In this document: positions 1-56,585 of the stretch, piece by piece
Layout: the number at the start of each line of letters is the position of its first letter
Numbering within the stretch: the first letter of the stretch is position 1
From: an uncultured Candidatus Saccharibacteria bacterium
GTDB lineage: Bacteria > Patescibacteriota > 4484-211 > JAGQKX01
DNA length: 64,000 bases
Reading direction: 5' to 3'
Assembly (NCBI GenBank): GCA_964392315.1
Contig: CAYMOT010000002.1
Coordinates: forward strand, 139,637 to 203,636
Program-made: the position numbers and the translations under genes
The notes under the pieces: model-generated
What the model was told of the DNA's origin: nothing
Seen by the model: the letters and a program-made list of their open reading frames with translations, nothing else
Databases searched by the model: none

Positions 1-1
1 A

Positions 2-964
2 GGAAAACGTTATTCATTGCACGAAGGTATCGTCCAAGTTCCAGGTATTGCAGTTAACAATAATGCTGACATTCCTCGCTATCGTGCGGGGAATCTCAAG
101 CTTGTGTTTGGTGTCGTGTTTTCGCTGGACAAAGAGTCAGTAGATGAGCTTAACGCGCTGCAGCAAACGGAATACGATTTTTCAAAAATGAACGGACTTA
201 AATATGGATTGAGCGGAGCCGTTGAACAACTTGCGTACTATCATGATGTTTTGCATACATATGCAGATGATTTGCAATTAGTTCGTTCTCGCGCAGACTA
301 TGAAAATCTGGCCGGCAAGATAGGAATGCTTCTGCACTTAGAAGGGATAGATTATATTTCAGATATTTCCTTACTTGAATCGTTTTATAAAATGGGAGTG
401 CGAAGTGTCGCAATGACGTGGAGAAATAAAAATATTTTTGCTTCGGGAAATAATGTGGAAGGTGGTTTGACCGATGTAGGAAGAGAATTGATAGCAAAGA
501 CACGAGAACTCGATATGGTTTTTGATCTGGCACACGCTAATCCACAGACGTTTTGGGATGCAATGGAAGCTATTGATTTTCCTTTCATGGTCTCGCATAC
601 ACTCGTCAATGCGATTAAAGAAAACTCACGCAATCTCACAGACGATCAGATAAAGGCAGTGGCTCAGCGAGGTGGGGTCATCGGTATTGCGACAATCCCT
701 GATTATATGACTGGCGATTCAATGGATGATTATGTTGACCAGTTTGACTATATCTTGAAATTGGTCGGAGAGGATCATGTTGCGTTTGGTACTGACTTTG
801 ACGGGTTGGTCGATCCGACTGATCGTTTTGTGCAGGGATTTGAAGACGCGTCAATGTATCAAAATGTGTTACAGGCTTTTGACAAACGAGGTTTCTCAGA
901 ATCCACTATTGAGAAGATCGCGTATAAAAACGCTGAGCGGTTAATCTTGTCAGCGCTTTCCTAG
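2..964 (+). CDS. Membrane dipeptidase (peptidase M19 family), 5'-partial. The frame is open to the window start.
   Basis: C-terminal motif GEDHVAFGTDFDG matches the M19 'G.DHVG.GSDFDG' signature; VSHTLVNAIKENSRNLTDDQIKA..GGVIGI matches the M19 core. The N-terminal HxD motif is absent, so the gene starts upstream of the window. Confidence 0.7.
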   Translation, partial: GKRYSLHEGIVQVPGIAVNNNADIPRYRAGNLKLVFGVVFSLDKESVDELNALQQTEYDFSKMNGLKYGLSGAVEQLAYYHDVLHTYADDLQLVRSRADYENLAGKIGMLLHLEGIDYISDISLLESFYKMGVRSVAMTWRNKNIFASGNNVEGGLTDVGRELIAKTRELDMVFDLAHANPQTFWDAMEAIDFPFMVSHTLVNAIKENSRNLTDDQIKAVAQRGGVIGIATIPDYMTGDSMDDYVDQFDYILKLVGEDHVAFGTDFDGLVDPTDRFVQGFEDASMYQNVLQAFDKRGFSESTIEKIAYKNAERLILSALS

Positions 965-969
965 GTTCT

Positions 970-1881
970 ATGATTATAGATGTGCATACTCACGTTGGAT
1001 TTAATGCGAAGCGTGCATTTAACGGTATTCACCCGTTCTGCCAATCAGCTCAGGATTTGGTGCGGAAGATGGACCAGTTTGGCATTGATACAGCAGTCAC
1101 TTTTCCCTTCGAGCCTACTCTATATGATGACCCGAAAGATTACTACACCCTTATTCCAACAGGCTTAATGGAGTATCCGTATCAATATGAAAATCGGCTT
1201 CTCATAGATCAAGTGAAAAAATTTGGCAAGGATCGTTTGATTCCGTTTGCATGCGTCGATCCACTACGAGAGGTTGATAAACAAGCAGCACAATTACGAG
1301 CATGGGCAGAAGAGGGTTTAATTCGTGGTTTTAAAATTCACACAAAAAGTATGCAAGCAGATGGTAGAACTATGATTAATTCGCCATTTGCTGCTATTGC
1401 GGAAGAGTTCAAGCTGTCAATGCTGTTTCACACCTATATGCAAGAGGTTGCGCACCCGCTGCATGTGATGGAGTTTGTAAAAAACCATTCAAGCATCCAT
1501 GTGTGTATTGCGCATGGCGGTGGGTTTATTCAAGAGTTTTATGATGAGCTGGAGAAAGTAAACCCACAGAATTTTTTCATTGACCTCTCCCCTACTACAG
1601 CACTCCTAACTTTTATCCGGAAAGAATCAAAAGAACGGGGATTTACGGTGTTAGATCTGCCGTATGAAAACCCACAAGAAGTTGTCCAGCAGATGGTAAA
1701 GAACTATGGGGAATATATTGTGTTTGGGACTGATGAGCCGTTCACCACCTACATTAATGATTTAGAAGGTGGGTCGATCATATCGGATATGGGAAAAGAG
1801 TTAGAGATATTTAGATCGCTGTCTACAGAAGATTTTGAAAAAGTAACTGACAGTAACCCGAGACGGTTTTTGCATCTTTAA
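970..1881 (+). CDS. Amidohydrolase-family metal-dependent hydrolase (TIM barrel)
   Basis: N-terminal IIDVHTHVGFN (the HxH metal-binding start typical of amidohydrolase 2); 303 aa; lies 5 nt after the dipeptidase stop, so likely in an operon with it. Confidence 0.55.
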   Translation: MIIDVHTHVGFNAKRAFNGIHPFCQSAQDLVRKMDQFGIDTAVTFPFEPTLYDDPKDYYTLIPTGLMEYPYQYENRLLIDQVKKFGKDRLIPFACVDPLREVDKQAAQLRAWAEEGLIRGFKIHTKSMQADGRTMINSPFAAIAEEFKLSMLFHTYMQEVAHPLHVMEFVKNHSSIHVCIAHGGGFIQEFYDELEKVNPQNFFIDLSPTTALLTFIRKESKERGFTVLDLPYENPQEVVQQMVKNYGEYIVFGTDEPFTTYINDLEGGSIISDMGKELEIFRSLSTEDFEKVTDSNPRRFLHL

Positions 1882-1936: not shown

Positions 1937-3484
1937 CTACTTGCGCCAATTGGCGCGTTTTTTCATCCAGTTGACGATGCCTTCAAGCTCCGAAGGCTCT
2001 TTTTCGATGGCGATTGGATGGAGTCTCCACCCGCCGAGAACCATATCGAGTTGCGAGCTGACAAACCCTCGCAGGAAACACTGTCCAGCAGGGCTGGACA
2101 GGAGCGTAGCAGCATCTGTCTCGAGGGCTGCCTGCTTCTCTCGAAGCGTGGCGCGTTCAGGGTCTACTTCCGATCGTGCTCCTGCGACCGCTTGCTGAAC
2201 TGCTTCGCGGGTTGGGGCTTTCTTTAGTGCACTGAGCAGGCGAGGATTTAGTTGTTGCACTTCTTTCTCAGCCCACCGACGCAGTAGGTCTTCGTCTTCT
2301 GGCGCCTCCAAGTCGACTTGCTCGCGAATCGCTTTTGCCCGGTGACTTTGCTCTTCAGCGAGCTTGTTCCACGCCTCGTACATTTCAAGCAATCGGTTGA
2401 CAGTAGGAGCGGCCCAGTCTGGCGTCCAAAAGTACTTGAGATGATTAGACGGATGAAGGACGTACGTCACATCCTTCGGAAGCCCGAGTGGATCTGCAAG
2501 CAGGTCCCACAGCTGTTCGATTTCGGCACGACGCTCAGCGGATTCGTCATCATCGAGCAGGTACGTCACCATCGAGGTCCCGCTGATGTGATGGACCAAT
2601 TCGCCGCCTGACCGAGCGAGCTGTGCCATCACCGGCAGCACGACATAAGCCGTTGTGTCAAGAATTGCTCCACTCATACGAAATAAGTCGGGTTTCTCAC
2701 CCGGCTTACTAAGAATCTCCGCAATGTACTGCATGAGCTGGAGCGCGATTTTCGACAGTAGTTCTGTCGGTATCTGCGGTCCTCCGTGGTAGCGCGTCCG
2801 GATCGGGCCAACGTCTCGTAAGGGCCGGCGTACACCTTGTTCCACCCACTCGTAAAAGTGGCGAGGCAGATGTTGGGCGATCAGTGCAAGTGCCTCCGGG
2901 AGTTTATCCCATGACAGCAGAAACTCACTCGCACTTATCGGATTAGCGTGCGGGAAGGCATAGCGTAGCATACTGTAGTGATACTGCGCAGGCGTCTGCG
3001 CATGCACCGCAAGCAGCCCTGGTGGAACGATTCTTTCAAGCTGGCAAGCCACTTCCCATTGCATGCCTCCCTTTGAGGCAAGTCCGACGATGGGGTTGGG
3101 CAATACCGAACCCATCATACCGCTCCAAACACCGAGCAATTCTTCCCACTGCTGTTGCAAGCGTGCAGTGAGTAGAAAACCGGGTTGGAACGTGTAGGGT
3201 GGCTTAGCCCAGATTGCCGCAGGACCGATAACCTGCCCATCGTGGCTGACGATAAGGCTCGCGCCGTCATAGGTCAACGTGTCGACAGGGTATGCACCGT
3301 CGCCAGCGGGGGTGAACTCGTGCTGAATGAAATCCAGCCCGTGGCCACCTAACGCTGCAAGAACGGCTAGCCGCTGGCTGTTTTGTGTGCCAATATGAGA
3401 TGAGGTCCCGATTGGGACACCACCATCCAAAGCTTCTCGTAGTCGGTTGAGGGGATCATTGCCTCTTACTATTGTGAAAGCCAT
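1937..3484 (-). CDS. Hypothetical 515-aa protein, GC-rich; paralog of the 6808-8241 gene (unknown family, HHISGTSM motif)
   Basis: Longest ORF in a visibly GC-rich segment. GGAGG Shine-Dalgarno 7 nt upstream of the ATG at 3484. Ala/Arg/Leu/Pro/Trp-rich composition unlike neighbouring proteins. N-terminus MAFTIVRGNDPLNRLREAL aligns with MPINFVNGSQITLRESLEF of the 6808 gene; shared ..YAFPH.. and ..SGTSM.. blocks. Confidence 0.7.
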   Translation of the reverse strand: MAFTIVRGNDPLNRLREALDGGVPIGTSSHIGTQNSQRLAVLAALGGHGLDFIQHEFTPAGDGAYPVDTLTYDGASLIVSHDGQVIGPAAIWAKPPYTFQPGFLLTARLQQQWEELLGVWSGMMGSVLPNPIVGLASKGGMQWEVACQLERIVPPGLLAVHAQTPAQYHYSMLRYAFPHANPISASEFLLSWDKLPEALALIAQHLPRHFYEWVEQGVRRPLRDVGPIRTRYHGGPQIPTELLSKIALQLMQYIAEILSKPGEKPDLFRMSGAILDTTAYVVLPVMAQLARSGGELVHHISGTSMVTYLLDDDESAERRAEIEQLWDLLADPLGLPKDVTYVLHPSNHLKYFWTPDWAAPTVNRLLEMYEAWNKLAEEQSHRAKAIREQVDLEAPEDEDLLRRWAEKEVQQLNPRLLSALKKAPTREAVQQAVAGARSEVDPERATLREKQAALETDAATLLSSPAGQCFLRGFVSSQLDMVLGGWRLHPIAIEKEPSELEGIVNWMKKRANWRK

Positions 3485-3802
3485 CGTAACCTCCGTTTAC
3501 AGAAATTTGAAGGGGCGTGCTTCGAATACATCCGTGTCAGGGGATGACACAAGAAACAATAAACCGCGGAAGCAGCACGGTCGTGTTCCTTATCGGTTTT
3601 CGTGACGATGCACGTCGGATCCTGCGGGGAAACGCATTGATTCCTCAATCGTTGGCGTTTAATCCGATAGAGAAGAGATAGTGTTGGGTACTATCATTTG
3701 GAGAGATATGTGCAGGTGGTGGGGATTCTAAGCGAACTTAGGAGGAGGAGAGGGGAAAAAGAGAGGAAGGTACAAAGGGGAAAGGAGTTAATAAGCGTTC
3801 AT

Positions 3803-3838
3803 TTACATATTTGTACTATTTGCATATTTGCTTATTTT
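3803..3838 (+). promoter_or_regulatory. Copy of the TTGTAC-TATTTG promoter-like motif (-35 TTGTAC, 16-nt spacer, -10 TATTTT) with no plus-strand gene downstream
   Basis: ATTTGTACTATTTGCATATTTGCTTATTTT. It lies between two minus-strand genes, so it is either an antisense/sRNA promoter or a protein-binding site used in either orientation. Confidence 0.3.
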
Positions 3839-3904
3839 CTCCTCCCCCACTTATACCGATTCCTCGTAAGTTGTTAATGTTCCTGACAAAGAGGCAGTGG
3901 ATTT

Positions 3905-6016
3905 TTAGATGAGCGTTTGCTCAAGATATGCATTGCCGGTTGATCCGTTGAAGTAAAGCGTGTAGAGCAGCGGGAATCCTAAAAAGCTCAAAAAACGATT
4001 ATGTTTCCCTTGTTGTGGCCTATAAAATTCTTCGAGTACATTAACAACAGCAGTTTTTTCGTTATTGCTCTGTTGCATGATTGCATCCAGGTAAGGTGTT
4101 TCATTGATTGATTGCTGTAATCTCGAGAATGTCATTGGTGTTTCTTGAATTAACTCTTCGACAAGTGCATCGCGTTTGGCAGGCGATAATTCATGCTGAT
4201 ATACCTCAACCATCAGTTCGTGTAAATTGGTGCTATCCGAATTTATGCCTTCGAGACGATGCACTGGGTTACGCTCTAGATACATTGATTGCAGTAGCGA
4301 TGGATAGCGTTTATACAGAGTGAGCGCAATGTCAAATAAAATGCATCCACTCACAAACTCGCCATTATAATCCTCTATCAACTCAATTACCTTTTGTCCG
4401 TTATCGTAGGTTAAGTAAATATTATTTCCTTTTTCCAGAACAGAATATGCTTCTGAACCTGAATGATGTGTCAGAACATATTTCAAGATATCGTGAGAAA
4501 GTGCTTTTACTACAGGGCTTGATTCAAGTGTCAACTCGTCAAGTGGGTACCCAAGATCCTCTAACATTTTGAAATACGTGTCGTAATTGATACGGTTGAT
4601 CACATGGTATTCATCAATCATTGCAGTACGTTCGATGCGGAGCGTAGGATTTAGCTTTGTAATAACATCGATTACATAATTTGCGATGAGTACTCCTGCA
4701 CGTTGGGATAAGCCTTCGTTTCTGTCTGCATGCACGTGTGCGGTCTCGATGTTCATGGCGGTATGACTCAACGCCAATTGTTTCACTACTTCACTTTCCT
4801 CAAGTCCTGTTTGTGGAAGTTTTGTATTCCAATCGACCGGGAAATATTCTTTTATAGTACCGGTGCGCATAACAACGCTTCCGGACCGGATTTTTTGGGT
4901 GGCAAACCACTCCTGTAGGTTGTTCGCCGGTAGTATTTTGCCGGTAGATCCTTTTTTGTTAAGCATCTCTTCAAACTCATTCGTGCTTTGAAAGGAAGTA
5001 GTAATGTCCGTTGGAATCAACAATACGATATCTTTCTGCCCTATTTGTAGCTGTGTAGATTGGAAAGGCGTTGCAGAATGACCGCCCAGTGAATAGTCAT
5101 TGTGCTCAGGAGAAATGACATGGGTAAGTTTTTTGGTAAAAAAATCTTCTGCGCTTTTGGGAGAAAGTTGCACTATACTTGCATTTCCAATGAGCACGGT
5201 CTTGACATATCGTATGCCGTCTTTTACATATTCTTGTGCGCCGATGAATCCTATACCTTCTGCAATTTTGCGAAGATATGCATAATAATCGAGTAGCAAA
5301 TTAGATACCTCAAATGGGTATTGTGTCAAAAAACGCTCGTACACGTCTGCCAATTCTTTGATCTCAGGTCGGGATTCTTGTGAATCTCCATTATTCGTGA
5401 ATACGCAGGCAACGATATTATCGGTTTTGTTTTTGTATACTGCTATGTAATTAGCGTTTATTTCACGCCTGCCTTCAGTATTACTTTCAGAGTGGACAGG
5501 TAAGTATTCAGTAGTATAGCCTCTATCGACGCCGCGCTCGTTAATTGCCATAAGAAATCTGTGAAAGTCTTTGCACTGCCGATATGTCGTTTCCGCATCT
5601 AAGATGGCATCCTCATCGTTTTGTTCTTTTAGAACTGCATCCAATCCCATGATTCTGGAAAAATGGCCAAATTCATCCCGGATCTCATGCTTTTGTGCGG
5701 TTTCTTTATCAGTAAGACAAAGCTCGTTAAAGGGTGTACCAAATTCCAATAGCGCAGAGATTTCGCTTTTGATCTCTTCGGTATAGGGCTGATTTAGTTC
5801 TAGCTGTGAAAAGATAGTCTCTAACGTAACTGAAGCGCCATTTTTGGCACTTTCTGCGAGGATCATGAGTTCTGCTTTGGTTAGCTCATAAAATTGTTGT
5901 TGTTTATTAAGGGGTAAGGCATAAAAGATATCGACATCTAAGCCTTTAAAGTCGAGCACGAGCTGTGCTACCCCCTGAGGCAGGGTGTGAGTTTTGTTTG
6001 CTATTACATTTTCCAT
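3905..6016 (-). CDS. Hypothetical 703-aa protein (AT-rich; no recognisable domain)
   Basis: Long intact ORF with Lys/Asn/Ile/Glu-rich composition typical of the host. A perfect TATAAT lies ~23 nt upstream of the ATG. No SD. It sits 40 nt downstream of a minus-strand tRNA, so co-transcription is possible. Confidence 0.65.
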   Translation of the reverse strand: MENVIANKTHTLPQGVAQLVLDFKGLDVDIFYALPLNKQQQFYELTKAELMILAESAKNGASVTLETIFSQLELNQPYTEEIKSEISALLEFGTPFNELCLTDKETAQKHEIRDEFGHFSRIMGLDAVLKEQNDEDAILDAETTYRQCKDFHRFLMAINERGVDRGYTTEYLPVHSESNTEGRREINANYIAVYKNKTDNIVACVFTNNGDSQESRPEIKELADVYERFLTQYPFEVSNLLLDYYAYLRKIAEGIGFIGAQEYVKDGIRYVKTVLIGNASIVQLSPKSAEDFFTKKLTHVISPEHNDYSLGGHSATPFQSTQLQIGQKDIVLLIPTDITTSFQSTNEFEEMLNKKGSTGKILPANNLQEWFATQKIRSGSVVMRTGTIKEYFPVDWNTKLPQTGLEESEVVKQLALSHTAMNIETAHVHADRNEGLSQRAGVLIANYVIDVITKLNPTLRIERTAMIDEYHVINRINYDTYFKMLEDLGYPLDELTLESSPVVKALSHDILKYVLTHHSGSEAYSVLEKGNNIYLTYDNGQKVIELIEDYNGEFVSGCILFDIALTLYKRYPSLLQSMYLERNPVHRLEGINSDSTNLHELMVEVYQHELSPAKRDALVEELIQETPMTFSRLQQSINETPYLDAIMQQSNNEKTAVVNVLEEFYRPQQGKHNRFLSFLGFPLLYTLYFNGSTGNAYLEQTLI

Positions 6017-6056
6017 TTGCTTATTTGTTTGTTTGCATATTATAAATTTGTTGACT

Positions 6057-6133
6057 TGGCTCCCCGGGAAGGATTCGAACCTCCAACCAACTGCTAAGAA
6101 TACAGCCGCTCTGTCCTATTGAGCTACCAGGGA
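6057..6133 (-). tRNA. tRNA, anticodon read as TCT (Arg); atypical anticodon loop (AUUCUUA, U at position 37)
   Basis: Cloverleaf folded by hand. Acceptor TCCCTGG/CCGGGGA, D stem GCTC/GAGC, T arm GGAGG-TTCGAAT-CCTTC, encoded CCA. The anticodon stem GCTGT/GCAGT needs two G-U pairs. Confidence 0.6.
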
Positions 6134-6142
6134 TATAAATAA

Positions 6143-6190
6143 ACCTCCGGTGAGGGAGGTTCTGGTTCTTTTTTTATTTTTTTAATTTAA
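6143..6190. terminator. Intrinsic terminator hairpin ACCTCC-GGTGAG-GGAGGT followed by a T-run (bidirectional context)
   Basis: Perfect 6-bp stem plus TTCTGGTTCTTTTTTTATTTTTT on the plus strand; A-rich on the other side. Confidence 0.55.
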
Positions 6191-6526
6191 TTTTAGCGAG
6201 AACCCCCTATACCGTCTTTGTGATCCAGAGGACCATAAAGAAAAAAGTAATGAGACCAATAAGCATATGCTTGCTGGCCTGGGGGGTACGATAATTTGTT
6301 GTTGCTAAAATTTGGGTCATACGTCGGCTTTCTCTTATAACAGAAATTTGGCAAATCTGTCAACAGGTTTTTTGACAGAGTTAGAATACTTGTGGTATAT
6401 ACGTGTTTCATGGAAACGTCCTTATCGAGTATACAACCAAAGCGTTGGCACCAATATTATGGTTACCGGTTTACCGCGGGAGGTCTTTTCATGTTCTAAA
6501 TCCATATACAAATAAATAAACGAAGT

Positions 6527-6556
6527 ATGTTGCCTCCCGAACGGGAGGTTTTTTTG
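6527..6556 (+). terminator. Intrinsic terminator CCTCCC-GAAC-GGGAGG + TTTTTTT
   Basis: GC hairpin immediately followed by 7 T; 12 nt after the stop of the small ORF 6312-6515. Confidence 0.55.
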
Positions 6557-6637
6557 TATATGGGCACATTAACAACTAAAGTATAAAGACGGGTCACGTG
6601 TAAATTATCCGGTACAAATATTTCTTTTTGCATGTTT

Positions 6638-6681
6638 TCATTTGCTTAATTGTACTATTTGCATTATTTGCTTATTAATTT
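6638..6681 (+). promoter_or_regulatory. Sigma70-like promoter carrying the recurrent TTGTAC-TATTTG motif (-35 TTGTAC, 17-nt spacer, -10 TATTAA)
   Basis: TTGTACtatttgcattatttgctTATTAA lies ~125 nt upstream of the SD-supported start at 6808. The same motif recurs in >=10 intergenic regions. Confidence 0.5.
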
Positions 6682-6807
6682 TTGCCTGTCCCCTCTTTGT
6701 AACCCCTCTATCCTCGTTTTTATAAAGCCACTTTCCTCTTGTGGCAAAACCGCCCGGTTTTACAAATCCTCGCTTGTTTGGGAGCACACGTAAAAAGGAG
6801 TAGATCA

Positions 6808-8241
6808 ATGCCAATCAATTTTGTAAATGGTTCTCAGATTACACTGAGAGAAAGTTTGGAGTTTAACGGCCGCGGCTCTCGAACGCCGCATCCCGGTTGG
6901 GAGAATACGATGACCACGATTCTTGCCCAACTTGGGGTACCTATTGAATTGTGTTGGGAAGTGCGTGCAGATCTGAAAGGGTATCGCGTGACACATCTTG
7001 GCGGTCATCGCATATCGCAGGACGACGCGAAGTGTGGTCCGTGGGCGCAGTTTGATGTGGTGAAGTGGGCAACGGTCAGGGCCACCTTACCTGGCAGTGT
7101 TCAATCGGTCGTTTCAACCTGCTGTACGCCGTTTCAAGCACACATGGCACTAGCAAAAGCAGCGTTTCCGCACATACAAACATCGGCTGATCTGTACCTT
7201 CGTCACGGCGAATTGGTGCAAAAAGCGCTAGATGTGCTTGCTCATAGTAGGTTTCGTGAGCATTTTGCGAAATATGTAGACGGCCAAGGGTATCTGCATC
7301 CAATCTACCAGGCACATGGTAATACCGTGTATTACCAGGGAAACCAAAAGGTGCACGCCCCACACCTGGAAGGCGGGTATATGAGACTCCTTGAGTTTGT
7401 GAAGGCGTCACAGAAGCACGGCGCCCAGGTTGCCTATCCCGCTTGGGGAGTGCTTCCTGATGCGCGGATTCTATGTCTACTGGATATGGTGGTGTATGCA
7501 CTGAGTGGGAATATTGACCACGTGTATGCGTGGTCGGGCACGTCGATGATGCAATACATCCTCAAAGAAGCTGATTCACAGCGGTGGCGAGAGATTGTGT
7601 CAGGGATGTATGACTTGGTGCGGCAACGTGCTTTGCCGGAGTTACCACGAGTATTAGATTTCACGCTAATACCTACGTTGGGTTTGGGTGATCTGGCTGT
7701 GACAGATGCAAGCATGGCGCAAGCAGTTAATACCCAACTGTGTCAGTTAAATGTTGCGGGAGTACGTGAGGAGCGGACAGACAAAGTTGGTTTGCAGCAA
7801 ATGGCGCGTGATGATGCGTATGCATTCTTGGCGCACATTGCTTTGTCCCTGGAGCCAAACGCGTGCACTGAGATTGCTCAGATGCTTGATGACGGCAATT
7901 GGCAAGGTGCCGGCGGCAAAGCTTCGGCATTGATATCTCTGCGCAGCAAAAAGCAGCACGTATGTGATCGGCATGTGGTTGAGGCTGAGTTAGGAGAACT
8001 GCTGCGAGATAACACCGGAAGATTTGTCCTTGCCAATCAACCGGCAGTAGATGCGCTGGCGTATGCAAACGGTACGCGATTGCACCTGTTGGTGGGTGTT
8101 TTGGATATTCCGGCAGGTAAGTTTGATTCGTATCGGGCGCGATTGGCAAACATCGCGTCGAGAGGGCAACGTAAAAATACTTCTCAAGAAGATGGTCCTC
8201 TCTTGCCCTATTTCAATAGAGCTGGGTGGATGCTAGAGTAA
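6808..8241 (+). CDS. Hypothetical 477-aa protein, GC-rich; paralog of the 1937-3484 gene
   Basis: AAAGGAG SD 8 nt upstream of the ATG at 6808 (the ORF track start at 6739 is probably too early). N-terminus and the internal AFPH / AWSGTSM blocks align with the 515-aa protein. GC-rich. Confidence 0.7.
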   Translation: MPINFVNGSQITLRESLEFNGRGSRTPHPGWENTMTTILAQLGVPIELCWEVRADLKGYRVTHLGGHRISQDDAKCGPWAQFDVVKWATVRATLPGSVQSVVSTCCTPFQAHMALAKAAFPHIQTSADLYLRHGELVQKALDVLAHSRFREHFAKYVDGQGYLHPIYQAHGNTVYYQGNQKVHAPHLEGGYMRLLEFVKASQKHGAQVAYPAWGVLPDARILCLLDMVVYALSGNIDHVYAWSGTSMMQYILKEADSQRWREIVSGMYDLVRQRALPELPRVLDFTLIPTLGLGDLAVTDASMAQAVNTQLCQLNVAGVREERTDKVGLQQMARDDAYAFLAHIALSLEPNACTEIAQMLDDGNWQGAGGKASALISLRSKKQHVCDRHVVEAELGELLRDNTGRFVLANQPAVDALAYANGTRLHLLVGVLDIPAGKFDSYRARLANIASRGQRKNTSQEDGPLLPYFNRAGWMLE

Positions 8242-8250
8242 ATAGGAGGT

Positions 8251-8293
8251 ATAAAAAAAAGCCGGCCGCCCACAAGGGGCGTCCGGCTTTTTG
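8251..8293. terminator. Bidirectional intrinsic terminator (A-run, AGCCGGCCGCCC-ACAA-GGGGCGTCCGGCT hairpin, T-run)
   Basis: Sits between convergent genes (6808-8241 + and 8365-8754 -). GC-rich stem flanked by A8 and T5. Confidence 0.6.
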
Positions 8294-8364
8294 CGATTAG
8301 AGCGACATCATGTACGCAAGTCGCTCCATCTGGTATTCCAATTCAGCCGCACACTCACGACATG

Positions 8365-8754
8365 TCAGACCTCCTCGTTGAAAACATAACCGAGCCATTG
8401 CAGCACGGGGCGGACATACTTGCCGCCGCAGTCGAGCCAGATAACCGAACAGCTCGCGACATCGAAAATGCCAAGAGCCACTTCCTGCTTCTGGACGACT
8501 GTTCCTTCCTGGTAGCCCATTTGCTTCAGGGCCTCGATCACGGTCGGGGTGACCGACACGCGATTAATCAAGATGGCGCCATATCCGCGTCGCTGGTATT
8601 CTTCGGTACCTTGGAAGTACCTTACCCAGTGTTCGATAGCGATTTTGGCGCTTTCCACATCCGCGCCGAACGAATATTGCCGTCCTTCTACGAAGGTGAA
8701 GCCGGACGTTAACCTCAGCCAGTACTCGCCGAGCGTCATGGTGGGGATTGTCAT
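8365..8754 (-). CDS. Hypothetical 129-aa protein, possibly a GNAT-fold acetyltransferase
   Basis: GGAGGTG SD 5 nt upstream of the ATG at 8754. The ATGA overlap with the upstream 181-aa gene means translational coupling. QRRGYGAIL resembles GNAT motif A (Q/R-x-x-G-x-G/A). Confidence 0.45.
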   Translation of the reverse strand: MTIPTMTLGEYWLRLTSGFTFVEGRQYSFGADVESAKIAIEHWVRYFQGTEEYQRRGYGAILINRVSVTPTVIEALKQMGYQEGTVVQKQEVALGIFDVASCSVIWLDCGGKYVRPVLQWLGYVFNEEV

Positions 8755-9296
8755 TTCCCACCTCCGACGACCGCACCGCAGCGGATGCAATAATCACGCA
8801 ATACGGCTTTATCGTTGACGAGATCTCCGAGTCGACGCGTACCGTGGTTGTGTTCACACTTCGCGTATGTCCAATAGGGTTGATCGAGAATGTTCCAACC
8901 CACGCGGGCGTACATGAAGGTCTTATAGTGAAGTACGCAAGGCGCCCACGGTATCGTTCCTTCCGGGCATACCGTAAAGGTTGCATAGTGCTCGTGGGAT
9001 ACCCGAGTCACTCTTGATATCCCTTCACTGTGCGCACGAAGTACAGCTGACGTCCACCCTGTGGGGACGTAGGTGGGGATGCGCGAAGACATGCCGAACC
9101 AATATACGCTCTTATCACCCTCAAAAATAGCAACAAGAGTTGTTGCATCGACCGAAAGCGCAATGTAATACGACATGACCTGCTCTTTTTCGATGCCGAG
9201 AATTTCTGCAACCTCGGACAGTTTGTTCCAACCCCATTTACCGAACTTGAAGGGTTGGATGTTCGGAAACCGATAAACCGCTGGTGCTACTATCAT
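8751..9296 (-). CDS. Hypothetical 181-aa protein with a C-terminal Cys/His cluster (CEHNH..CIRCG)
   Basis: AAGGAAGG SD upstream of the ATG at 9296 (ORF track start 9347 is probably too early). GC-rich. Its stop overlaps the start of the 129-aa gene. Confidence 0.45.
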   Translation of the reverse strand: MIVAPAVYRFPNIQPFKFGKWGWNKLSEVAEILGIEKEQVMSYYIALSVDATTLVAIFEGDKSVYWFGMSSRIPTYVPTGWTSAVLRAHSEGISRVTRVSHEHYATFTVCPEGTIPWAPCVLHYKTFMYARVGWNILDQPYWTYAKCEHNHGTRRLGDLVNDKAVLRDYCIRCGAVVGGGK

Positions 9297-9767
9297 ACTT
9301 TCCTTCCTTTTCAAGGATGCCTTAGGAAAGATTCGTTTAACGCCCATCGGCGTTCTGATCTGAATTGTGCATACCCTAGATGCAACGGGCCAAATCAGCC
9401 CGTGGTGTCTCCGTGAGACGAGTGAAGCTGAACATTGGGTTACTTCATCTAAGAAGTTCTAAACTGGGTGTTTAGAGCAATGCAGCAAGTTATATGGCTT
9501 GTTTTCTTTTGGTGGGAACCTAAAAAAACAAAGGTGTGAGGGGTATTGTGACATATATGCAGGGAGGCATATGTTTGTCTGGGAAGCGTCAGGTAGGGAG
9601 CCTGATTTTGCAAACGTGTGCAGTGCTTCTAATTGGTCGTAAAGACCGTAAAGCGGGGAGTCTTGGGAGAGGAGAGGAAGATAGGAAAGTACAAATAAGC
9701 AGATAAGCAAATACTATAGGACCAGCTTGGTTAAGTAAGGATCTGATTGATAAGGGTATTGAAACAT

Positions 9768-9796
9768 GAAAAAAGCCACCTTTTCCAAGGGTGGCT
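9768..9796 (-). terminator. Intrinsic terminator for the 458-aa gene (GCCACC-CTTGGAAAA-GGTGGC + T-run on the minus strand)
   Basis: Hairpin 40 nt after the stop at 9836, followed on the minus strand by TTTTTT. Confidence 0.6.
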
Positions 9797-9835
9797 CTGC
9801 GAATCGCCCGGCTGGGCCGAGCGACTCATAAATGG

Positions 9836-11212
9836 TTACTTCTTGCTTGTCAATGCGTCAAGCCAATTGGCCAAACGCTCCATCCATCGTGGAATGGGGA
9901 ATCTCATTCCCACCAACTCATCGAATTGAGAGGCAGTAACGGCTTTGGCCAACGCACGACGGATCGCGTTTCGGAAACGCAGTGCACGGATGTGAGATCT
10001 GCTCCAAGGTTGTATCTCAAATCGGGGTCTTTCACCGGGATGCCAGATTACTCCGACAGCAACACCGTCGTCTTTGTTTCCAAAGAGATCGAAGCCGTAC
10101 TGTGTACCGGCGTATTCCCCCATCCAGCGCTCGAAGCGCTCTCCTGTTCTGTTCTCCTCGTTAGGCAGGTTCTCCAGGATCGCCTCCACGATGTGCCGGC
10201 AAAGGTGTAGCGTTTCCACTGGACCATAGGGTTCAATTCCCTTCCAATCTCGTCGTGAGAATGAACGGAACACCTGAACAGTCCTTTTTGGATACTTACC
10301 CTGATTATTGGAGATTACTGTATTGCAAAATCCAACATATTCGAGAGCAGGGTTTTCCAAAAAAAGTCTGTCCACTAGCCAATACAGAATTCTCGGCAGT
10401 TCTTGTGTACCTCCAGATGGCGCGAGGAAGACGTGGGTAACAGGAAGATGCTCCATGGAATCTTGAATCGACGTGGGAGTGAAATGGTTCTTGAAGAAGA
10501 AAGTCTCAAGTGTACCCGTAATCCCTAATTCAGTCGATAAACCTGTATCCAGGTCAACACCATGATACCGGTCATCATCATCAAGGAGCTGCACGATCAA
10601 CCCAAATGGACCCGTTACCGGTCCATAATGTTGCCAATAACTGCCATTGGCTGAAGTCACCTTCCAGAAGACACGATTGATTGGCTCGACGCGTGTCTCC
10701 AGGTACGGGAATAGTTGTCGAACCAATTCACCTTGATCATGTTCGTAGGTAACCGGGATCATCCCTTTAGGCAGCCTAGGACGAGCGTATCGGTCTCCAA
10801 CCTTTAGGGCTTGGATACTTCCACCCTTTGGATCTCGGGCCATCATCCAATCGCCACCCCAGTCATAGAGTTCTTCGAGTCGACCTGTTTCTAACAGGTG
10901 GTTGTAGATATCAAAGAACTCTTGTGAAGTCATTGGCCAGCCCGTGGATGCGACTTGGACATTCCAGAAGTGTCCGATGAACGGACTTGTCCGAACGAGC
11001 TCATCGATTTGGGTGGGTATTGCTTTTAAGGCGTCCAATTTGGACATTGGAGCTGATCTCAGAAACCTCCCATCATAGGCTGCAAACGCCTCAAATTGCT
11101 CTTTCCACCAAATGTGAGAAATACCCACCGATATCCACGGTATCCTCAGATTGGTGGGCTTACCCGGTCTTACTTCGATGTACGGCTTACGTGAAACCAT
11201 CCCACTCGTCAT
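9836..11212 (-). CDS. Hypothetical 458-aa protein (GC-rich, Trp-rich, LLDDDDRYHGVDLDTGL acidic block)
   Basis: Long intact ORF in the GC-rich block. ATGA start/stop overlap with the upstream 98-aa gene. Dedicated terminator downstream. No domain recognised. Confidence 0.6.
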   Translation of the reverse strand: MTSGMVSRKPYIEVRPGKPTNLRIPWISVGISHIWWKEQFEAFAAYDGRFLRSAPMSKLDALKAIPTQIDELVRTSPFIGHFWNVQVASTGWPMTSQEFFDIYNHLLETGRLEELYDWGGDWMMARDPKGGSIQALKVGDRYARPRLPKGMIPVTYEHDQGELVRQLFPYLETRVEPINRVFWKVTSANGSYWQHYGPVTGPFGLIVQLLDDDDRYHGVDLDTGLSTELGITGTLETFFFKNHFTPTSIQDSMEHLPVTHVFLAPSGGTQELPRILYWLVDRLFLENPALEYVGFCNTVISNNQGKYPKRTVQVFRSFSRRDWKGIEPYGPVETLHLCRHIVEAILENLPNEENRTGERFERWMGEYAGTQYGFDLFGNKDDGVAVGVIWHPGERPRFEIQPWSRSHIRALRFRNAIRRALAKAVTASQFDELVGMRFPIPRWMERLANWLDALTSKK

Positions 11213-11505
11213 GACGCCACCTCCGCATGTCCGTTGCCAAGACGCAGTTGTTCGCGGACGATTTCCAGAACGTCATCGCGGACTGATGCCGTATAGGCAT
11301 CAACCCGGAAATAGAGCCCTGAGATATCGATCGTAACAAAGTTGCCATCAAGGCCTATGCGTACCGGAACAGAGGGCACTTTTAGGGGAACCGTGATCTC
11401 AGCATCCAGATCAAGCAGAGCGAGAACTTCCTCGCGACCGAACAAAACGGCCCACTTCGAATGGCCGTTTATTCCAACGGAAATAAAACGTTTGTTTGTA
11501 TTCAC
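11209..11505 (-). CDS. Hypothetical 98-aa protein (GTG start), first gene of a coupled pair with the 458-aa gene
   Basis: AAGGAG SD 6 nt upstream of the GTG at 11505. Its stop overlaps the ATG of the 458-aa gene. Confidence 0.45.
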   Translation of the reverse strand: MNTNKRFISVGINGHSKWAVLFGREEVLALLDLDAEITVPLKVPSVPVRIGLDGNFVTIDISGLYFRVDAYTASVRDDVLEIVREQLRLGNGHAEVAS

Positions 11506-12365
11506 AACATTCTCCTTACATCATCTTCTAAAGGAAAACACGTTGGCGTTCCCAGCTTCCCGGGCTGAGGGTTTTTGAACACAGTTTGATGCAACTATGC
11601 GTCGCATCGAGGACAGGCTAAAAGCGGATGCATGTAAAACCAAAATCACGCATCACACTATCCTCTCGTCTTAACCCAGTCGTCAGTAAAACGACCTGGA
11701 TTTTGAAGACTTCTCGTGTTGTCGTCACGAGCATTAAATGGACCGTTTCCATCGGGTGATGGAAATCCTACTAGGAGATTCGGCCATTCCTCACGGCCAC
11801 GGACTCGCCACGTATGACGAGCCGTTCGCAGTTGATCCAAAACTGCTTTTGGAGCTGACTGACACATCAGCTTTTTGTATGAGGGGAATTGCAGGCGCAT
11901 GCACGGTAGCCCATGCATGGCAAATATGCGGGGACAGAACTTGAATGGTGAATTCAAGGTGTTTTCTTCAATACCAGTCGGGAGACAGGTAAGGAAAAAA
12001 CGAGGGTTTTTGGTAGGAGTTTTGTCAACCTAACTGACAGGGTGGTCAGTATAACGGTTGTATTGAATCATTTGATTGGGAGTCAAATGTGTCTTTGATA
12101 GACGTATTCAATTAGAGGAATTGAAAAAGGGTGGGGGTCGAAAGAGAGAGGAAAGGTATACTTTGTGTTTTTGCCAAGAATCAACTTGATCCATGGGTTA
12201 TTAGTTAATTAACAAAGTGCACGTTTCCTCCATCTTAAGTACCTTGATCCTTTCTAGTCCTACTTTCCCTATTCCCTCATACATAATATATATAGATTGT
12301 TAATGAACGGAAAATATGGTGCGAATTATACGCGTAAATTACATATATGTAAATACTATGGGACC

Positions 12366-12930
12366 AATATGTCATTTAAAAAATGTTATAGAAAGATACT
12401 GTAGTGTATGCAGCAAAAAGCCCTCCGCATCTCCCCCATAGTTTGGAGTTGCGAAGGGCAGCTATTAGGCCAATATAGTACATGGCCTTTTTAAGTCCCG
12501 AAGGACTCGAACTATTTTCTTGGCTGGCTCTACACCGTAGCCCCAAGAGCGCCGTTCGAAGGCTGAGGAGTCCGCTACCCTTACACATGTAAGGACGGCT
12601 GAAGATCTGTTACCAGACCTTTTGTTTTGGTACGCACAAGTCGTACCCTCCGCTACTCACCTGCCCTCTTTCGATCTCGCAGGTTGCCGTATGACTTGAG
12701 TAGCCGCATAGGCTGTATTGGTGAGTATTATGATAATTCTTTTGGTTCAGGAAGTGCCGAGGGGCAGGCGATTCCAGGCACCTACCCCTCAAACATCCGT
12801 CCTCCGGTGATTCACGCCTCGCTTCGTGAACATTTATGCCTTCATGTACAACACATCTAGAGTAATAAGCTAATAATCAAATAATCCAATAAACAAATAT
12901 ACAAATAAATTGAAAGGCCTATAAACGAAT
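12366..12930 (+). ncRNA. Candidate large structured non-coding RNA of unknown class
   Basis: ORF-free 1.3 kb gap. GC-rich island (12400-12860) inside AT-rich DNA. Nested perfect helices (GCTACTC..CCTGC..GCAGG..GAGTAGC) and a pseudoknot-like GTGCC/GAGGGG..GGCAC..CCCCTC arrangement. An upstream AAATACTATGGGACC promoter-like motif and a downstream CCTCCC hairpin terminator (12932-12968) bracket it. tRNA-Leu follows. Confidence 0.3.
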
Positions 12931-12931
12931 G

Positions 12932-12968
12932 AACCTCCCTTTTGTGGGAGGTTGTGTATTTGTTTCTT
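12932..12968 (+). terminator. Intrinsic terminator CCTCCC-TTTTGT-GGGAGG + T-rich tail
   Basis: Perfect 6-bp GC stem followed by TTGTGTATTTGTTTCTTT. Same hairpin family as 6143 and 6527. Confidence 0.5.
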
Positions 12969-13236
12969 TGATTTATAAAACAAACCTCCCTATGAATAAT
13001 TGCCAATAATGACAAAAAGCATAGTATCCTGGTGCTTGGTCCAGGATGTGGAGATCTGAGAGTTGGTTGCGAAACAGCTGTACATACTAATGTGGACTAT
13101 AACGTTATTTAATATGTCCGTCAATGGGAGGTTATAATATATAAATACACCAATAATCTAATAGTCGAGTAGCCTAAATAGTAAAAATAATAATAATCAT
13201 AATCATATAAATAATAAAGATAGGCACCTATCAATC

Positions 13237-13280
13237 GATTTGCTTATTTGTACTATTTGTAGTATTTGTTTATTACTCAG
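13237..13280 (+). promoter_or_regulatory. Sigma70-like promoter for tRNA-Leu (-35 TTGTAC, 17-nt spacer, -10 TATTAC, 5-6 nt to the tRNA 5' end)
   Basis: TTGCTTATTTGTACtatttgtagtatttgttTATTACtcagG, where the final G is tRNA position 1. Confidence 0.55.
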
Positions 13281-13365
13281 GCCGGTGTGGTGAAATTGGC
13301 AGACACGCTTGGTTTAGGACCAAGTGCCGAAAGGCTTGGGGGTTCAAGTCCCTCCACCGGCACCA
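13281..13365 (+). tRNA. tRNA-Leu (anticodon TAG), class II with a long variable arm
   Basis: Hand-folded. Acceptor GCCGGTG/CACCGGC, 3-bp D stem, anticodon arm CTTGG-TTTAGGA-CCAAG, 13-nt variable arm, T arm GGGGG-TTCAAGT-CCCTC, A73, encoded CCA. Confidence 0.85.
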
Positions 13366-13432
13366 CAAAAAATAATTTCAAATAATCAAATATACAAATA
13401 AGCAAATAGAAAGAGGGTAATTTTCGAATACG

Positions 13433-40141: not shown

Positions 40142-40218
40142 GCCCCAGTAGCTCAGTAGGATAGAGCAACTCCCTTCTAAGGAGTAGGTCAGAGGTTCGA
40201 CTCCTCTCTGGGGTACCA
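40142..40218 (+). tRNA. tRNA-Arg (anticodon TCT), canonical
   Basis: Anticodon arm ACTCC-CTTCTAA-GGAGT; D stem GCTC/GAGC; T arm AGAGG-TTCGACT-CCTCT; A73; CCA encoded. Confidence 0.85.
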
Positions 40219-55827: not shown

Positions 55828-56585
55828 GCTGCATTTACTCCCACTCCCCTCTTTAACTTTACCTCACTGAGCAAATTATCTTTTGCTTTGCCCTCTAGAA
55901 TATCGGTTACTTTGCCGTCCATGATGCGAATCACTGATTTTGCAAATCGTACATATTCCAAGTCGTGAGTTACCATTACGATAGTTCTTTTTTCCTGGGT
56001 ATTTAGATCCTGCAGGATTTGCATGACCGTCTGTCCTGAATTATAGTCAAGGTTACCCGTTGGCTCATCTGCAATAATAATTTCAGGATTATTGATTAAG
56101 GCACGTGCCATCGCGATTCTTTGTTGTTGTCCAGAGGAAAGCTCTGTAGGCTTGTATCCGGCCCAGTCAGTCATTGAAACTTTTTCCAATAGAGCCTGTG
56201 CCTTTTGAATAGATTCATTTTTTTCTCTCCCTAGTAATAATAGCGGAAAAGCGACATTTTCGATGACACTCAGTGATTTAATCCAGTTTGGTTGCTGATA
56301 TACCATACCAACGAGTTGTTTCCTGAGAACTGCACGGTCATCTTCTGTGCGGTATGAATAAATATCTTCACCTACAATACTCACCGTTCCTGAGCTTGGC
56401 TCTTCGAGTCCAAGCATTATATGAAGCAGTGTTGATTTACCTGATCCTGATGGGCCAGATACAATAACAAAGTCTCCATCGTGCACATCAAACGTTACGC
56501 CCTTTAGAATCTGAACATCCTGGTTACCGACTCTAAAAGATTTCTTTACATTCACTACCGATATTATTGTTGATTTTTGCGTCAT
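55824..56585 (-). CDS. ABC transporter ATP-binding protein (MacB/LolD-like)
   Basis: Walker A GPSGSGKST; signature LSSGQQQR; Walker B IIIADEPTGNLD. Overlaps both neighbours by 4 nt. Confidence 0.85.
   Translation of the reverse strand: MTQKSTIISVVNVKKSFRVGNQDVQILKGVTFDVHDGDFVIVSGPSGSGKSTLLHIMLGLEEPSSGTVSIVGEDIYSYRTEDDRAVLRKQLVGMVYQQPNWIKSLSVIENVAFPLLLLGREKNESIQKAQALLEKVSMTDWAGYKPTELSSGQQQRIAMARALINNPEIIIADEPTGNLDYNSGQTVMQILQDLNTQEKRTIVMVTHDLEYVRFAKSVIRIMDGKVTDILEGKAKDNLLSEVKLKRGVGVNAA

What the first reader, a model, noticed from the sequence alone, without database searches (positions are those of the whole stretch)
1937..8241. Divergently oriented pair of ~500-aa paralogs of an unrecognised family (HHISGTSM / AWSGTSM motif)
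The 515-aa (minus strand) and 477-aa (plus strand) proteins align along their whole length. Examples: MAFTIVRGNDPLNRLREAL vs MPINFVNGSQITLRESLEF; LRYAFPHANP vs LAKAAFPHIQT; VVLPVMAQLARSGGELVHHISGTSMVTYLL vs LLDMVVYALSGNIDHVYAWSGTSMMQYIL. That is roughly 25% identity, so the duplication is ancient and the pair has been retained. The x-S-G-T-S-M block loosely resembles phosphate-binding loops (ASKHA phosphate-1, AnmK MSGTSLDG), but it lies far from the N-terminus, so a fold assignment is not possible by eye. Both genes have good SD sequences. The 477-aa gene sits behind a sigma70-like promoter with the locus-wide TTGTAC motif.
Basis: seen in the sequence. Interest (0 to 1): 0.7.

Follow-up and report, generated by a model that had tools for sequence, protein, structure and literature searches.

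The report
Undescribed tRNA-synthetase-like enzyme pair
The two ~500-residue proteins are real but very distant relatives from an undescribed enzyme family with the nucleotide-binding fold of class I tRNA synthetases, and the family is encoded beside a dipeptidase and, in this group of bacteria, an odd tRNA gene, which points to an unknown amino-acid-ligating pathway in uncultured bacteria.

Summary
A (1937-3484, minus, 515 aa) and B (6808-8241, plus, 477 aa) are homologous (BLASTP E=8e-10; Smith-Waterman z=15.7 against shuffles). The similarity is strongest in the central ~190 residues, not along the whole length.

No Pfam, NCBIfam, PADLOC or PHROGs model matches either protein. An exhaustive profile search of 1.84 billion proteins finds only 206 relatives, all without a domain assignment for the matched part.

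A and B are not sister copies. They belong to different ancient clades, and A has 56% GC in a 42% GC genome.

The genes sit in a conserved module: irregular tRNA, then an unknown 663-703-aa protein, then the family enzyme, then an M19 dipeptidase. One relative is fused to a ThrRS anticodon-binding domain.

I infer an ATP-dependent, aaRS-like amino-acid ligase, possibly acting on the module's own tRNA. The function is untested.

The parts
1937..3484 (-). Protein A, 515 aa. A typical member of the undescribed class-I-aaRS-like superfamily. It occupies the slot directly after the 703-aa gene.
3380..3406 (-). HIGH-like motif of A (TSSHIGTQN), between the first core strand and the following helix.
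   Evidence: Translation. H is present in 103/105 and G in 102/105 members. Secondary structure: E25-29, loop, H34-44.
2561..2593 (-).
   Evidence: Translation. G and Y are invariant and M is 96/105. It lies at the junction of strand E296-301 and helix H303-311.
3801..3838 (.). AT-rich repeat element (ATTTACATATTTGTACTATTTGCATATTTGCTTATTTT) in the 420-nt spacer upstream of A. It may be a promoter or regulatory element.
   Evidence: Repeat family D2/D3, with copies at 3801, 6012, 6640 and 13238.
3905..6016 (-). 703-aa protein of unknown fold. It is the conserved upstream partner of the family enzyme.
   Evidence: Full-length homologues of 663-674 aa lie directly upstream of B-type genes in L006, L008, L009 and L043, and a 703-aa one lies upstream of the A-type gene in L002. 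Invariant motifs are listed. No Pfam, NCBIfam or PDB match.
6057..6133 (-). tRNA with anticodon UCU and an irregular anticodon loop (AUUCUUA: A32, U37), 40 nt upstream of and co-oriented with the 703-aa gene.
   Evidence: ARAGORN and Rfam, 54.5 bits. A co-oriented tRNA lies at this position in all six lineages, and three of them have 6-nt anticodon loops. A canonical tRNA-Arg(UCU) lies elsewhere at 40142-40218.
6640..6677 (.). Copy of the AT-rich TTGTAC repeat, 130 nt upstream of B.
6808..8241 (+). Protein B, 477 aa. It belongs to the Woesebacteria-type subfamily, which has derived motifs.
6880..6906 (+). HIGH-like motif of B (RTPHPGWEN). H and G are kept, and the fourth position is W.
7525..7557 (+). 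The family's first His is replaced by Ala.
970..1881 (+). Amidohydro_2 metal-dependent hydrolase, next to the module here and in L002 and L006.
   Evidence: PF04909 annotation of the identical gene in L001. 48-89% identical neighbours in L006 and L002.
1..964 (+). Peptidase M19 (membrane-dipeptidase family) gene, cut by the window start. It is the conserved neighbour of the family enzyme.
   Evidence: PF01244 annotation on the identical gene in L001. M19 genes follow the family gene in L006, L008, L009 and L043, and in a second clade, L021-L028, that is only 22-27% identical.

Best explanation
A and B are two anciently diverged members of an undescribed protein superfamily. [quoted passage not shown] The closest solved structures are BshC and class I LysRS.

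Shown:
- The homology between A and B.
- The family signature: R-S-x-H-x-G-N after the first core strand, a conserved acidic residue, a second His, H-x-S-G-x-x-M-x-x-Y at a strand-helix junction, and a C-terminal Q-Y-D.
- The conserved gene module: tRNA, then a 663-703-aa unknown protein, then the family enzyme, then an M19 dipeptidase (then Amidohydro_2 here and in L006).

Inferred:
- The H-x-G motif plays the role of the HIGH signature and binds ATP.
- The enzyme activates an amino acid, or an amino-acid-like carboxylate, as an acyl-adenylate.
- It then transfers that group to an acceptor. The acceptor is either the 3' end of the module's own tRNA, which appears not to decode, or an amine. 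The result would be an ester or amide (dipeptide-type) product that the co-encoded M19 peptidase turns over or matures.

The 703-aa protein is an obligatory partner of unknown role. A keeps the family consensus at every motif. B belongs to a derived subfamily (HPGW, and Ala in place of the first His of the block), so the two probably differ in substrate or step and are not redundant.
For: Homology.

Motif position: H-x-G lies in the loop between a strand and the following helix. The SG..M block lies at the junction of strand 238-243 and helix 245-253 in B. Conservation over 105 members.

Link to tRNA and aaRS biology:
- P0075 and two independent contigs (L018, L019; 73-74% identical) carry the family core fused to a ThrRS-type anticodon-binding domain (Pfam E=1.9e-21, thrS E=1.8e-27). 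In L018 this gene lies beside the canonical ThrRS and a TadA-like deaminase.
- Neighbours in other clades are PheS-related ligases (SrmL), ArgRS and HisRS.

Link to peptide and amino-acid metabolism:
- An M19 dipeptidase lies directly downstream in two clades that share only 22-27% (enzyme) and 30-33% (M19) identity.
- In L043 the module is kept while both outer flanks differ.
- An Asp/Glu racemase and a prolyl-aminopeptidase-like gene follow the family gene in L040. The racemase also follows it in L038 and L039.

tRNA: it is co-oriented and 11-87 nt upstream of the partner gene in all six lineages. The cloverleaf arms are intact and keep their pairing although the stem sequences differ between lineages. 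The anticodon loop is irregular in five of the six.
Against: - No biochemical data exist for any member.
- No KMSKS-like motif is conserved after the last core strand.
- No anticodon-binding domain is present in A or B.
- Residue-level superposition of H-x-G on HIGH could not be done, because no coordinates were available.
- Woesebacteria-like genomes are highly syntenic, so tRNA and M19 adjacency within that group is weaker evidence than it looks. The tRNA is absent from the second M19-linked clade.
- BshC, the nearest structure, has itself never been reconstituted in vitro (PMC5790435).
- B lacks one family-conserved His and might be catalytically altered.
Confidence: 0.5

Rival explanations
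1. tRNA-independent small-molecule ligase of the BshC/MshC type. The enzyme would join an amino acid to an amine-bearing metabolite, for example to make a low-molecular-weight thiol or a dipeptide-like compound. The adjacent tRNA would be an ordinary gene or a decaying one in a syntenic block.
For: BshC is the top structural match for both models, and MshC also appears. M19, Amidohydro_2, arginase and an aminotransferase are neighbours in the window's genome. The second M19-linked clade has no tRNA.
Against: The BshC Pfam and NCBIfam models do not match. The fusion to a ThrRS anticodon-binding domain exists on independent contigs. The tRNA stays attached to the module in L043 although the outer flanks differ.
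Confidence: 0.25
2. ATP-independent aminoacyl-tRNA-dependent transferase. Like cyclodipeptide synthases, it would use already charged tRNAs to build a peptide bond.
Confidence: 0.1
3. Component of a mobile or defence-type system, or a non-catalytic scaffold, and not a metabolic ligase.
For: The family is rare and patchy: 206 clusters in 1.84 billion proteins, and 2 hits in 185,579 species genomes. A and B are GC outliers. P0082 lies near an integrase and an AAA_14 gene. A MazE/PIN pair lies upstream in L043. A, B and the 703-aa protein are less conserved between the window and L002 (61-76% identity) than the flanking M19 and Amidohydro_2 (88-89%).
Against: There is no PADLOC or PHROGs hit and no relative in viral contigs. 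The conserved His, Gly and Tyr residues suggest an active site. The recurring neighbours are translation and amino-acid enzymes, not nucleases or abortive-infection effectors.
Confidence: 0.1
4. ASKHA-type sugar or acetate kinase or an AnmK-like enzyme.
For: Only the loose resemblance of x-S-G-T-S-M to ASKHA phosphate loops.
Confidence: 0.01

Closest known systems
BshC (bacillithiol synthesis putative cysteine ligase; PDB 4wbd)
   Different: There is no sequence similarity detectable by HMMER or Pfam. From memory, BshC lacks an H-x-G-N motif. No bshA or bshB context was seen here. The gene partners differ: the 703-aa protein, M19 and a tRNA.
Class I lysyl-tRNA synthetase (PDB 1irx) and class I aaRSs in general
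   Different: There is no KMSKS motif, no anticodon-binding domain in A or B, and no Pfam or NCBIfam aaRS hit. The distribution is rare and patchy, not universal. The linked tRNA looks unfit for decoding.
aaRS paralogues with non-translational roles (MshC, cyclodipeptide synthases, GluQRS)
   Different: None matches by sequence. The motif set and the gene neighbourhood are different.
Pseudo-tRNAs with roles outside translation (B. cereus tRNA-Other; staphylococcal tRNA-Gly used for peptidoglycan)
   Same: These are tRNA-shaped RNAs with features incompatible with normal decoding. Some are charged and used outside the ribosome (PMC3399842).
   Different: Here the tRNA is tied to a specific operon that encodes an aaRS-like enzyme. 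No expression or charging data exist.
NCBIfam NF051887 'PheS-related mystery ligase SrmL'
   Same: It is another uncharacterised aaRS-derived ligase. Two copies lie next to a short member of this family in L029, together with a radical SAM enzyme.
   Different: It has a class II fold, is not homologous to A or B, and is not present in the window.

Membership tests
Class I aminoacyl-tRNA synthetase catalytic-domain superfamily (HUP class) | Rossmann-type nucleotide-binding fold | tested here: met
Class I aminoacyl-tRNA synthetase catalytic-domain superfamily (HUP class) | HIGH signature at the start of the first helix | tested here: inconclusive
   H-x-G-[N/T/W] is conserved (H 103/105, G 102/105) and lies in the loop between a strand and a helix. 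The second His is absent, and residue-level superposition could not be done.
Class I aminoacyl-tRNA synthetase catalytic-domain superfamily (HUP class) | KMSKS loop after the last core strand | tested here: not met
   Only P-T is conserved after that strand. No column with a conserved Lys or Arg was found.
Bona fide aminoacyl-tRNA synthetase (any of the known enzymes) | Match to a curated aaRS family model, and an anticodon-binding domain | tested here: not met
   No Pfam or NCBIfam hit for A or B. None of 105 relatives has an aaRS core domain. Only the P0075 clade carries an HGTP_anticodon domain.
BshC family (Pfam PF10079) | Match to the family model | tested here: not met
   The Pfam scan at E≤1 returned nothing for A or B. 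A profile search of PDB sequences did not return 4wbd.
BshC family (Pfam PF10079) | Co-occurrence with bshA and bshB | not tested
   None was seen among the annotated neighbours. The whole genome was not available.
ASKHA superfamily (AnmK, sugar kinases, actin-like) | Duplicated RNase-H-like domains with phosphate-1/2 and adenosine motifs | tested here: not met
Cyclodipeptide synthases | Compact ~230-aa aaRS-like core without ATP-binding signatures | tested here: not met
tRNA (Rfam RF00005), for the gene at 6057-6133 | Cloverleaf scoring above the gathering threshold | tested here: met
   54.5 bits against a threshold of 29. The acceptor, D and T stems are all paired.
Canonical decoding tRNA, for the gene at 6057-6133 and its counterparts | 7-nt anticodon loop with U33 and a purine at position 37 | tested here: not met
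   The window and L002 loop is AUUCUUA (U37). L006, L009 and L043 fold with 6-nt loops. Only L008 is canonical.
Peptidase M19, for the neighbour at 1-964 | Match to PF01244 | tested here: met
   PF01244 is annotated on the identical gene in L001. The L021 partner scores E=6.6e-58 and clusters with the window protein.

The most novel reading that the evidence does not exclude
The module encodes a new tRNA-dependent pathway. A class-I-aaRS-like enzyme with no KMSKS motif and no anticodon-binding domain would charge, or draw from, a dedicated tRNA that no longer decodes and is encoded at the head of its own operon. The 663-703-aa protein and the M19 peptidase would convert the tRNA-bound aminoacyl group into, or release it as, a peptide-like product. 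This would be an aaRS/tRNA pair that has left translation altogether, found in candidate-phyla-radiation bacteria.
Probability: 0.2. Interest if true: 0.85.

Novelty: new variant of a known kind. Interest (0 to 1): 0.72.

Why it matters
- Class I aaRS-like cores recruited for non-translational chemistry are few, for example MshC, BshC, cyclodipeptide synthases and GluQRS. Each has opened a new piece of biochemistry.
- This family has about 200 sequence clusters and no entry in Pfam, NCBIfam, PADLOC or PHROGs. It has clear active-site-like motifs and a reproducible gene module.
- Its nearest structural relative, BshC, is an enzyme whose reaction has resisted reconstitution for over a decade. 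A related family with different partners may help explain both.
- If the linked irregular tRNA is a substrate, this would be a compact, testable case of a dedicated non-decoding tRNA system in uncultured, reduced-genome bacteria.

Tried and rejected
- Pfam, NCBIfam, PADLOC and PHROGs scans of A, B and four neighbours gave nothing. Pfam on 105 relatives gave nothing for the matched part.
- HMMER profiles of A1, A2, A4 and A6 against all PDB sequences gave nothing significant.
- hhalign found no relation between the 703-aa family and A/B, the 417-438-aa partner family (A6), or the 337-345-aa partner family (A7). It found none between the superfamily and ArgRS.
- Foldseek against the PDB was not significant. 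The afdb50 library was unavailable.
- The third word-indexed homologue search, run with the broad alignment, added only one protein.
- The scan of species genomes found two loci, only one of them a complete gene. The first attempt with alignment A2 failed because no stretch was conserved enough.
- Viral contigs hold no relatives.
- An integration-island reading around the tRNA was considered. No direct repeat of the tRNA 3' end was found, and the tRNA belongs to the module in every lineage, so I rejected it.
- The consensus promoter scan was not above chance.
- Rfam at permissive thresholds found no T-box or riboswitch upstream of B. It found nothing in the 1.8-kb gene-poor stretch at 11506-13280.
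- The BshC structure paper (PMC4303302) is not held. A literature search for 'BshC-like' found no papers, and the papers matching 'SrmL' use it as an unrelated abbreviation.
- Both structure-prediction jobs went to A and B, so the 703-aa protein could not be modelled.
Full report
**Observation.**
The window has a 515-aa ORF on the minus strand (A, 1937-3484). It also has a 477-aa ORF on the plus strand (B, 6808-8241 from the ATG; an upstream TTG at 6739 would add 23 residues). All B homologues begin with MPI.F, which supports the ATG. Both genes have good Shine-Dalgarno sequences: GGAGG before A and AAAGGAG before B.

BLASTP aligns A164-346 with B107-290 at 24% identity, E=8e-10. The Smith-Waterman score is 123, against 38±5.4 for 1000 shuffles (z=15.7). 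By segment, the core has z=18.5, the N-termini z=2.3 and the C-terminal thirds z≈0.

Profiles extend the relationship. A B-family HMM matches A159-477 at E≈4e-20. A superfamily HMM built without A-type or B-type sequences covers A 3-512 (184 bits) and B 1-334 (180 bits). The homology is therefore real, and the architecture is shared over most of the length. Pairwise similarity is limited to the middle.

The two genes are divergent but not adjacent. A 703-aa gene (3905-6016, minus) and a tRNA (6057-6133, minus) lie between them. A six-frame HMM scan finds no third copy in the window.

**An unrecognised family.**
Pfam, NCBIfam, PADLOC and PHROGs give no hit for A, B or the 703-aa protein. They also give none for the four ORFs beyond B. 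The word-indexed search of 5.8 billion proteins finds 4 relatives of A and 13 of B. One of these is a hypothetical protein of Candidatus Woesebacteria.

An exhaustive HMMER profile search of 1.84 billion cluster representatives finds 206 proteins at E≤1e-3 and 71 at E≤1e-10. None of 105 of them carries a Pfam domain on the matched part. Profiles find no relative among PDB sequences. A scan of 185,579 species genomes finds only a Woesebacteria contig and a Saccharibacteria fragment. Viral contigs hold none.

**Family signature.**
Over 105 members the conserved positions, in B numbering, are these:
- R25-S-x-H28-x-G30-N31
- an acidic residue near position 50
- H112
- G161
- H241-x-S243-G244-x-x-M247-x-x-Y250
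- P289-T290
- a C-terminal Q-Y-D

S is 78/105, and the T and second S vary.

A keeps the consensus at every motif: SSHIGTQN, HEF, HHISGTSMVTY and SQLD. The B subfamily is derived: HPGW, and Ala in place of H241.

**Fold.**
AlphaFold2 with the 17-18-sequence alignments gave pLDDT 73.6 and pTM 0.68 for A. Its 59-154 insertion is disordered. B gave pLDDT 86.5 and pTM 0.79.

In the models the H-x-G motif lies in the loop between a strand (B 23-25) and a helix (34-41). That is where class I enzymes carry HIGH. The SG..M block lies at the junction of strand 238-243 and helix 245-253, where class I enzymes carry their second conserved glycine motif. No KMSKS-like motif follows the last core strand. 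I could not superpose residues because coordinates are not exposed.

**A and B are not a simple duplicate pair.**
On 374 trimmed columns A and B share 20% identity. At least 18 proteins from other clades are closer to A than any B-type protein is. The superfamily splits into about 30 clades at the 30% level.

A has 55.8% GC (GC3 0.57) and B 51.2%, in a window of 42.5% GC. The 703-aa gene has 41%. The same holds in a related genome (L002). There A is 76% identical to the window copy, B 61% and the 703-aa protein 71%, while the flanking M19 and Amidohydro_2 are 88-89% identical.

In all other lineages a B-type gene follows the 663-674-aa gene directly. In the window and L002 that slot is held by A behind a ~400-nt spacer, and B sits on the other side of the tRNA. 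Acquisition of A by transfer, with displacement of B, is at least as likely as an in-situ duplication.

**Conserved module.**
The 703-aa protein is homologous over its full length (29-30% identity, E≈1e-70) to the 663-672-aa proteins encoded directly upstream of B-type genes in L006, L008 and L009. L043 has a 674-aa gene in the same position. The family has many invariant motifs: HFSRIMGLD, CKDF.RF, E.AH.HADR, MID.YHV.NR and ESSP. It has no detectable relative in Pfam, NCBIfam or the PDB.

A Peptidase_M19 gene follows the B-type gene in L006, L008, L009 and L043. It lies next to A, inverted and together with Amidohydro_2, in the window and L002. In L043 the genes on both outer sides differ, so the module itself is the conserved unit.

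A metagenome scan with a different subfamily gave 25 more loci. In eight of them (L021-L028, seven distinct sequences) the family gene is followed within 2-17 nt by an M19 gene (E=6.6e-58). These enzymes are 22-27% identical to A and B. Their M19 partners are 30-33% identical to the window's M19. The pairing has therefore survived very deep divergence. In six contigs of this subfamily scan the upstream gene is a different unknown family of 417-438 aa.

Other clades have other neighbours:
- An Asp/Glu racemase follows the family gene in L038-L040, with a prolyl-aminopeptidase-like gene after it in L040.
- An unknown 337-345-aa protein and then ArgRS follow it in L012 and L033-L035.
- Two copies of NCBIfam's 'PheS-related mystery ligase SrmL', a radical SAM enzyme, a methyltransferase and a thioester-reductase-like protein follow it in L029.

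One clade (P0075, L018, L019) is fused to a ThrRS-type anticodon-binding domain (Pfam E=1.9e-21; thrS E=1.8e-27). The fusion is present on two independent contigs. In L018 it lies between the canonical ThrRS and a TadA-like deaminase.

**The tRNA.**
In all six lineages with the 663-703-aa partner, a tRNA gene lies 11-87 nt upstream of that gene and is co-oriented with it. The window and L002 copies are identical over 77 nt. The acceptor, D and T arms are fully paired, and the acceptor stem stays paired although its sequence differs between lineages. Four of the five distinct sequences share the same T arm.

The anticodon loop is irregular and differs between lineages:
- window and L002: AUUCUUA (UCU, but A32 and U37)
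- L006/L016: AUCUUA, 6 nt
- L009: CACUUA, 6 nt
- L043: GCUUUA, 6 nt by minimum free energy
- L008: canonical Lys(UUU)

Rfam scores are 40-54 bits, against 65-71 for canonical tRNAs. The window also has a canonical tRNA-Arg(UCU) at 40142-40218, only about 75% identical.

Pseudo-tRNAs that act outside translation are documented (PMC3399842). This tRNA is absent from the second M19-linked clade. Its link to the enzymes is therefore a hypothesis, not a result.

**Interpretation.**
Shown:
- homology between A and B
- membership of an undescribed superfamily
- the motif set
- the gene module

Inferred: an ATP-dependent, adenylate-forming amino-acid ligase. Its product would be an ester or amide handled by the M19 peptidase. 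The acceptor would be either the module tRNA or an amine.

The rivals are a tRNA-independent BshC/MshC-type ligase, an ATP-independent aminoacyl-tRNA transferase, and a defence or mobile-element component. The ASKHA reading is rejected.

Membership in the class I aaRSs proper, in BshC, or in the cyclodipeptide synthases fails on tested features: there is no family-model hit, no KMSKS motif and no anticodon-binding domain. I therefore file it as a new family within a known fold class.

**Verdict.**
Interest 0.72. Novelty: a new variant of a known kind.

Noticed in passing
window 6057-6133 (-); L002 7345-7421; L006 1512-1585; L009 5132-5207; L043 5846-5922; L008 6751-6825: A tRNA lies directly upstream of the 663-703-aa gene in every lineage. 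Its arms are intact, but the anticodon loop is irregular and varies between lineages: U37 in the window and L002, and 6-nt loops in three lineages. The window also has a canonical tRNA-Arg(UCU) at 40142-40218.
   Followed up: partly
window 8242-11505: A block of four minus-strand ORFs (129, 181/198, 458 and 98 aa) has 50-56% GC (GC3 up to 0.70) in a 42.5% GC genome. None of the three that were scanned (198, 458 and 98 aa) matches Pfam, NCBIfam, PADLOC or PHROGs. A 68%-identical homologue of the 129-aa protein lies beside B in L002.
   Followed up: partly
window 3801-3838, 6012-6028, 6640-6677, 13238-13275; inverted copies at 9688-9704 and 13393-13410: An AT-rich element (ATTTGCTTAtTTGTACTATTTG...) recurs in intergenic regions upstream of A, the 703-aa gene, B and tRNA-Leu. 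It may be a lineage-specific promoter or operator. The generic sigma-70 scan was not above chance.
   Followed up: partly
window 12856-12915, 13136-13179, 13373-13416: Runs of 8-nt periodic AATAA[TG]C-like repeats flank tRNA-Leu (13281-13365).
   Followed up: no
window 11506-13280: A stretch of about 1.8 kb has no long ORF (only a 99-aa ORF, and a 68-aa called gene in L001). Rfam finds nothing at permissive thresholds.
   Followed up: partly
L029 1736-10450 (also L030): A biosynthetic-looking cluster: tRNA-Trp, a 438-aa unknown protein (A6 family), a short (299-aa) member of the superfamily, two 'PheS-related mystery ligase SrmL' genes above the NCBIfam cut-off, a radical SAM enzyme, a methyltransferase and a thioester-reductase-like SDR.
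   Followed up: partly
L018 4702-10255: Gene order: tRNA-Arg(CCU), canonical ThrRS, then a superfamily member fused to a ThrRS-type anticodon-binding domain, then a TadA-like deaminase. The fusion recurs on a second contig (L019).
   Followed up: partly
L021 9232-12133: A 23S rRNA gene with several large insertions relative to the bacterial model lies on a contig of the second M19-linked clade.
   Followed up: no
window 56582-62614 (-): A 2010-aa protein with fibronectin type III, Laminin_G_3 and Ig-like domains, probably a large surface protein.
   Followed up: no
window 6193-6411 (-): A small 72-aa ORF, called as a gene in the identical contig L001, lies between the tRNA and B. A hairpin at 6141-6162 follows it.
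   Followed up: no
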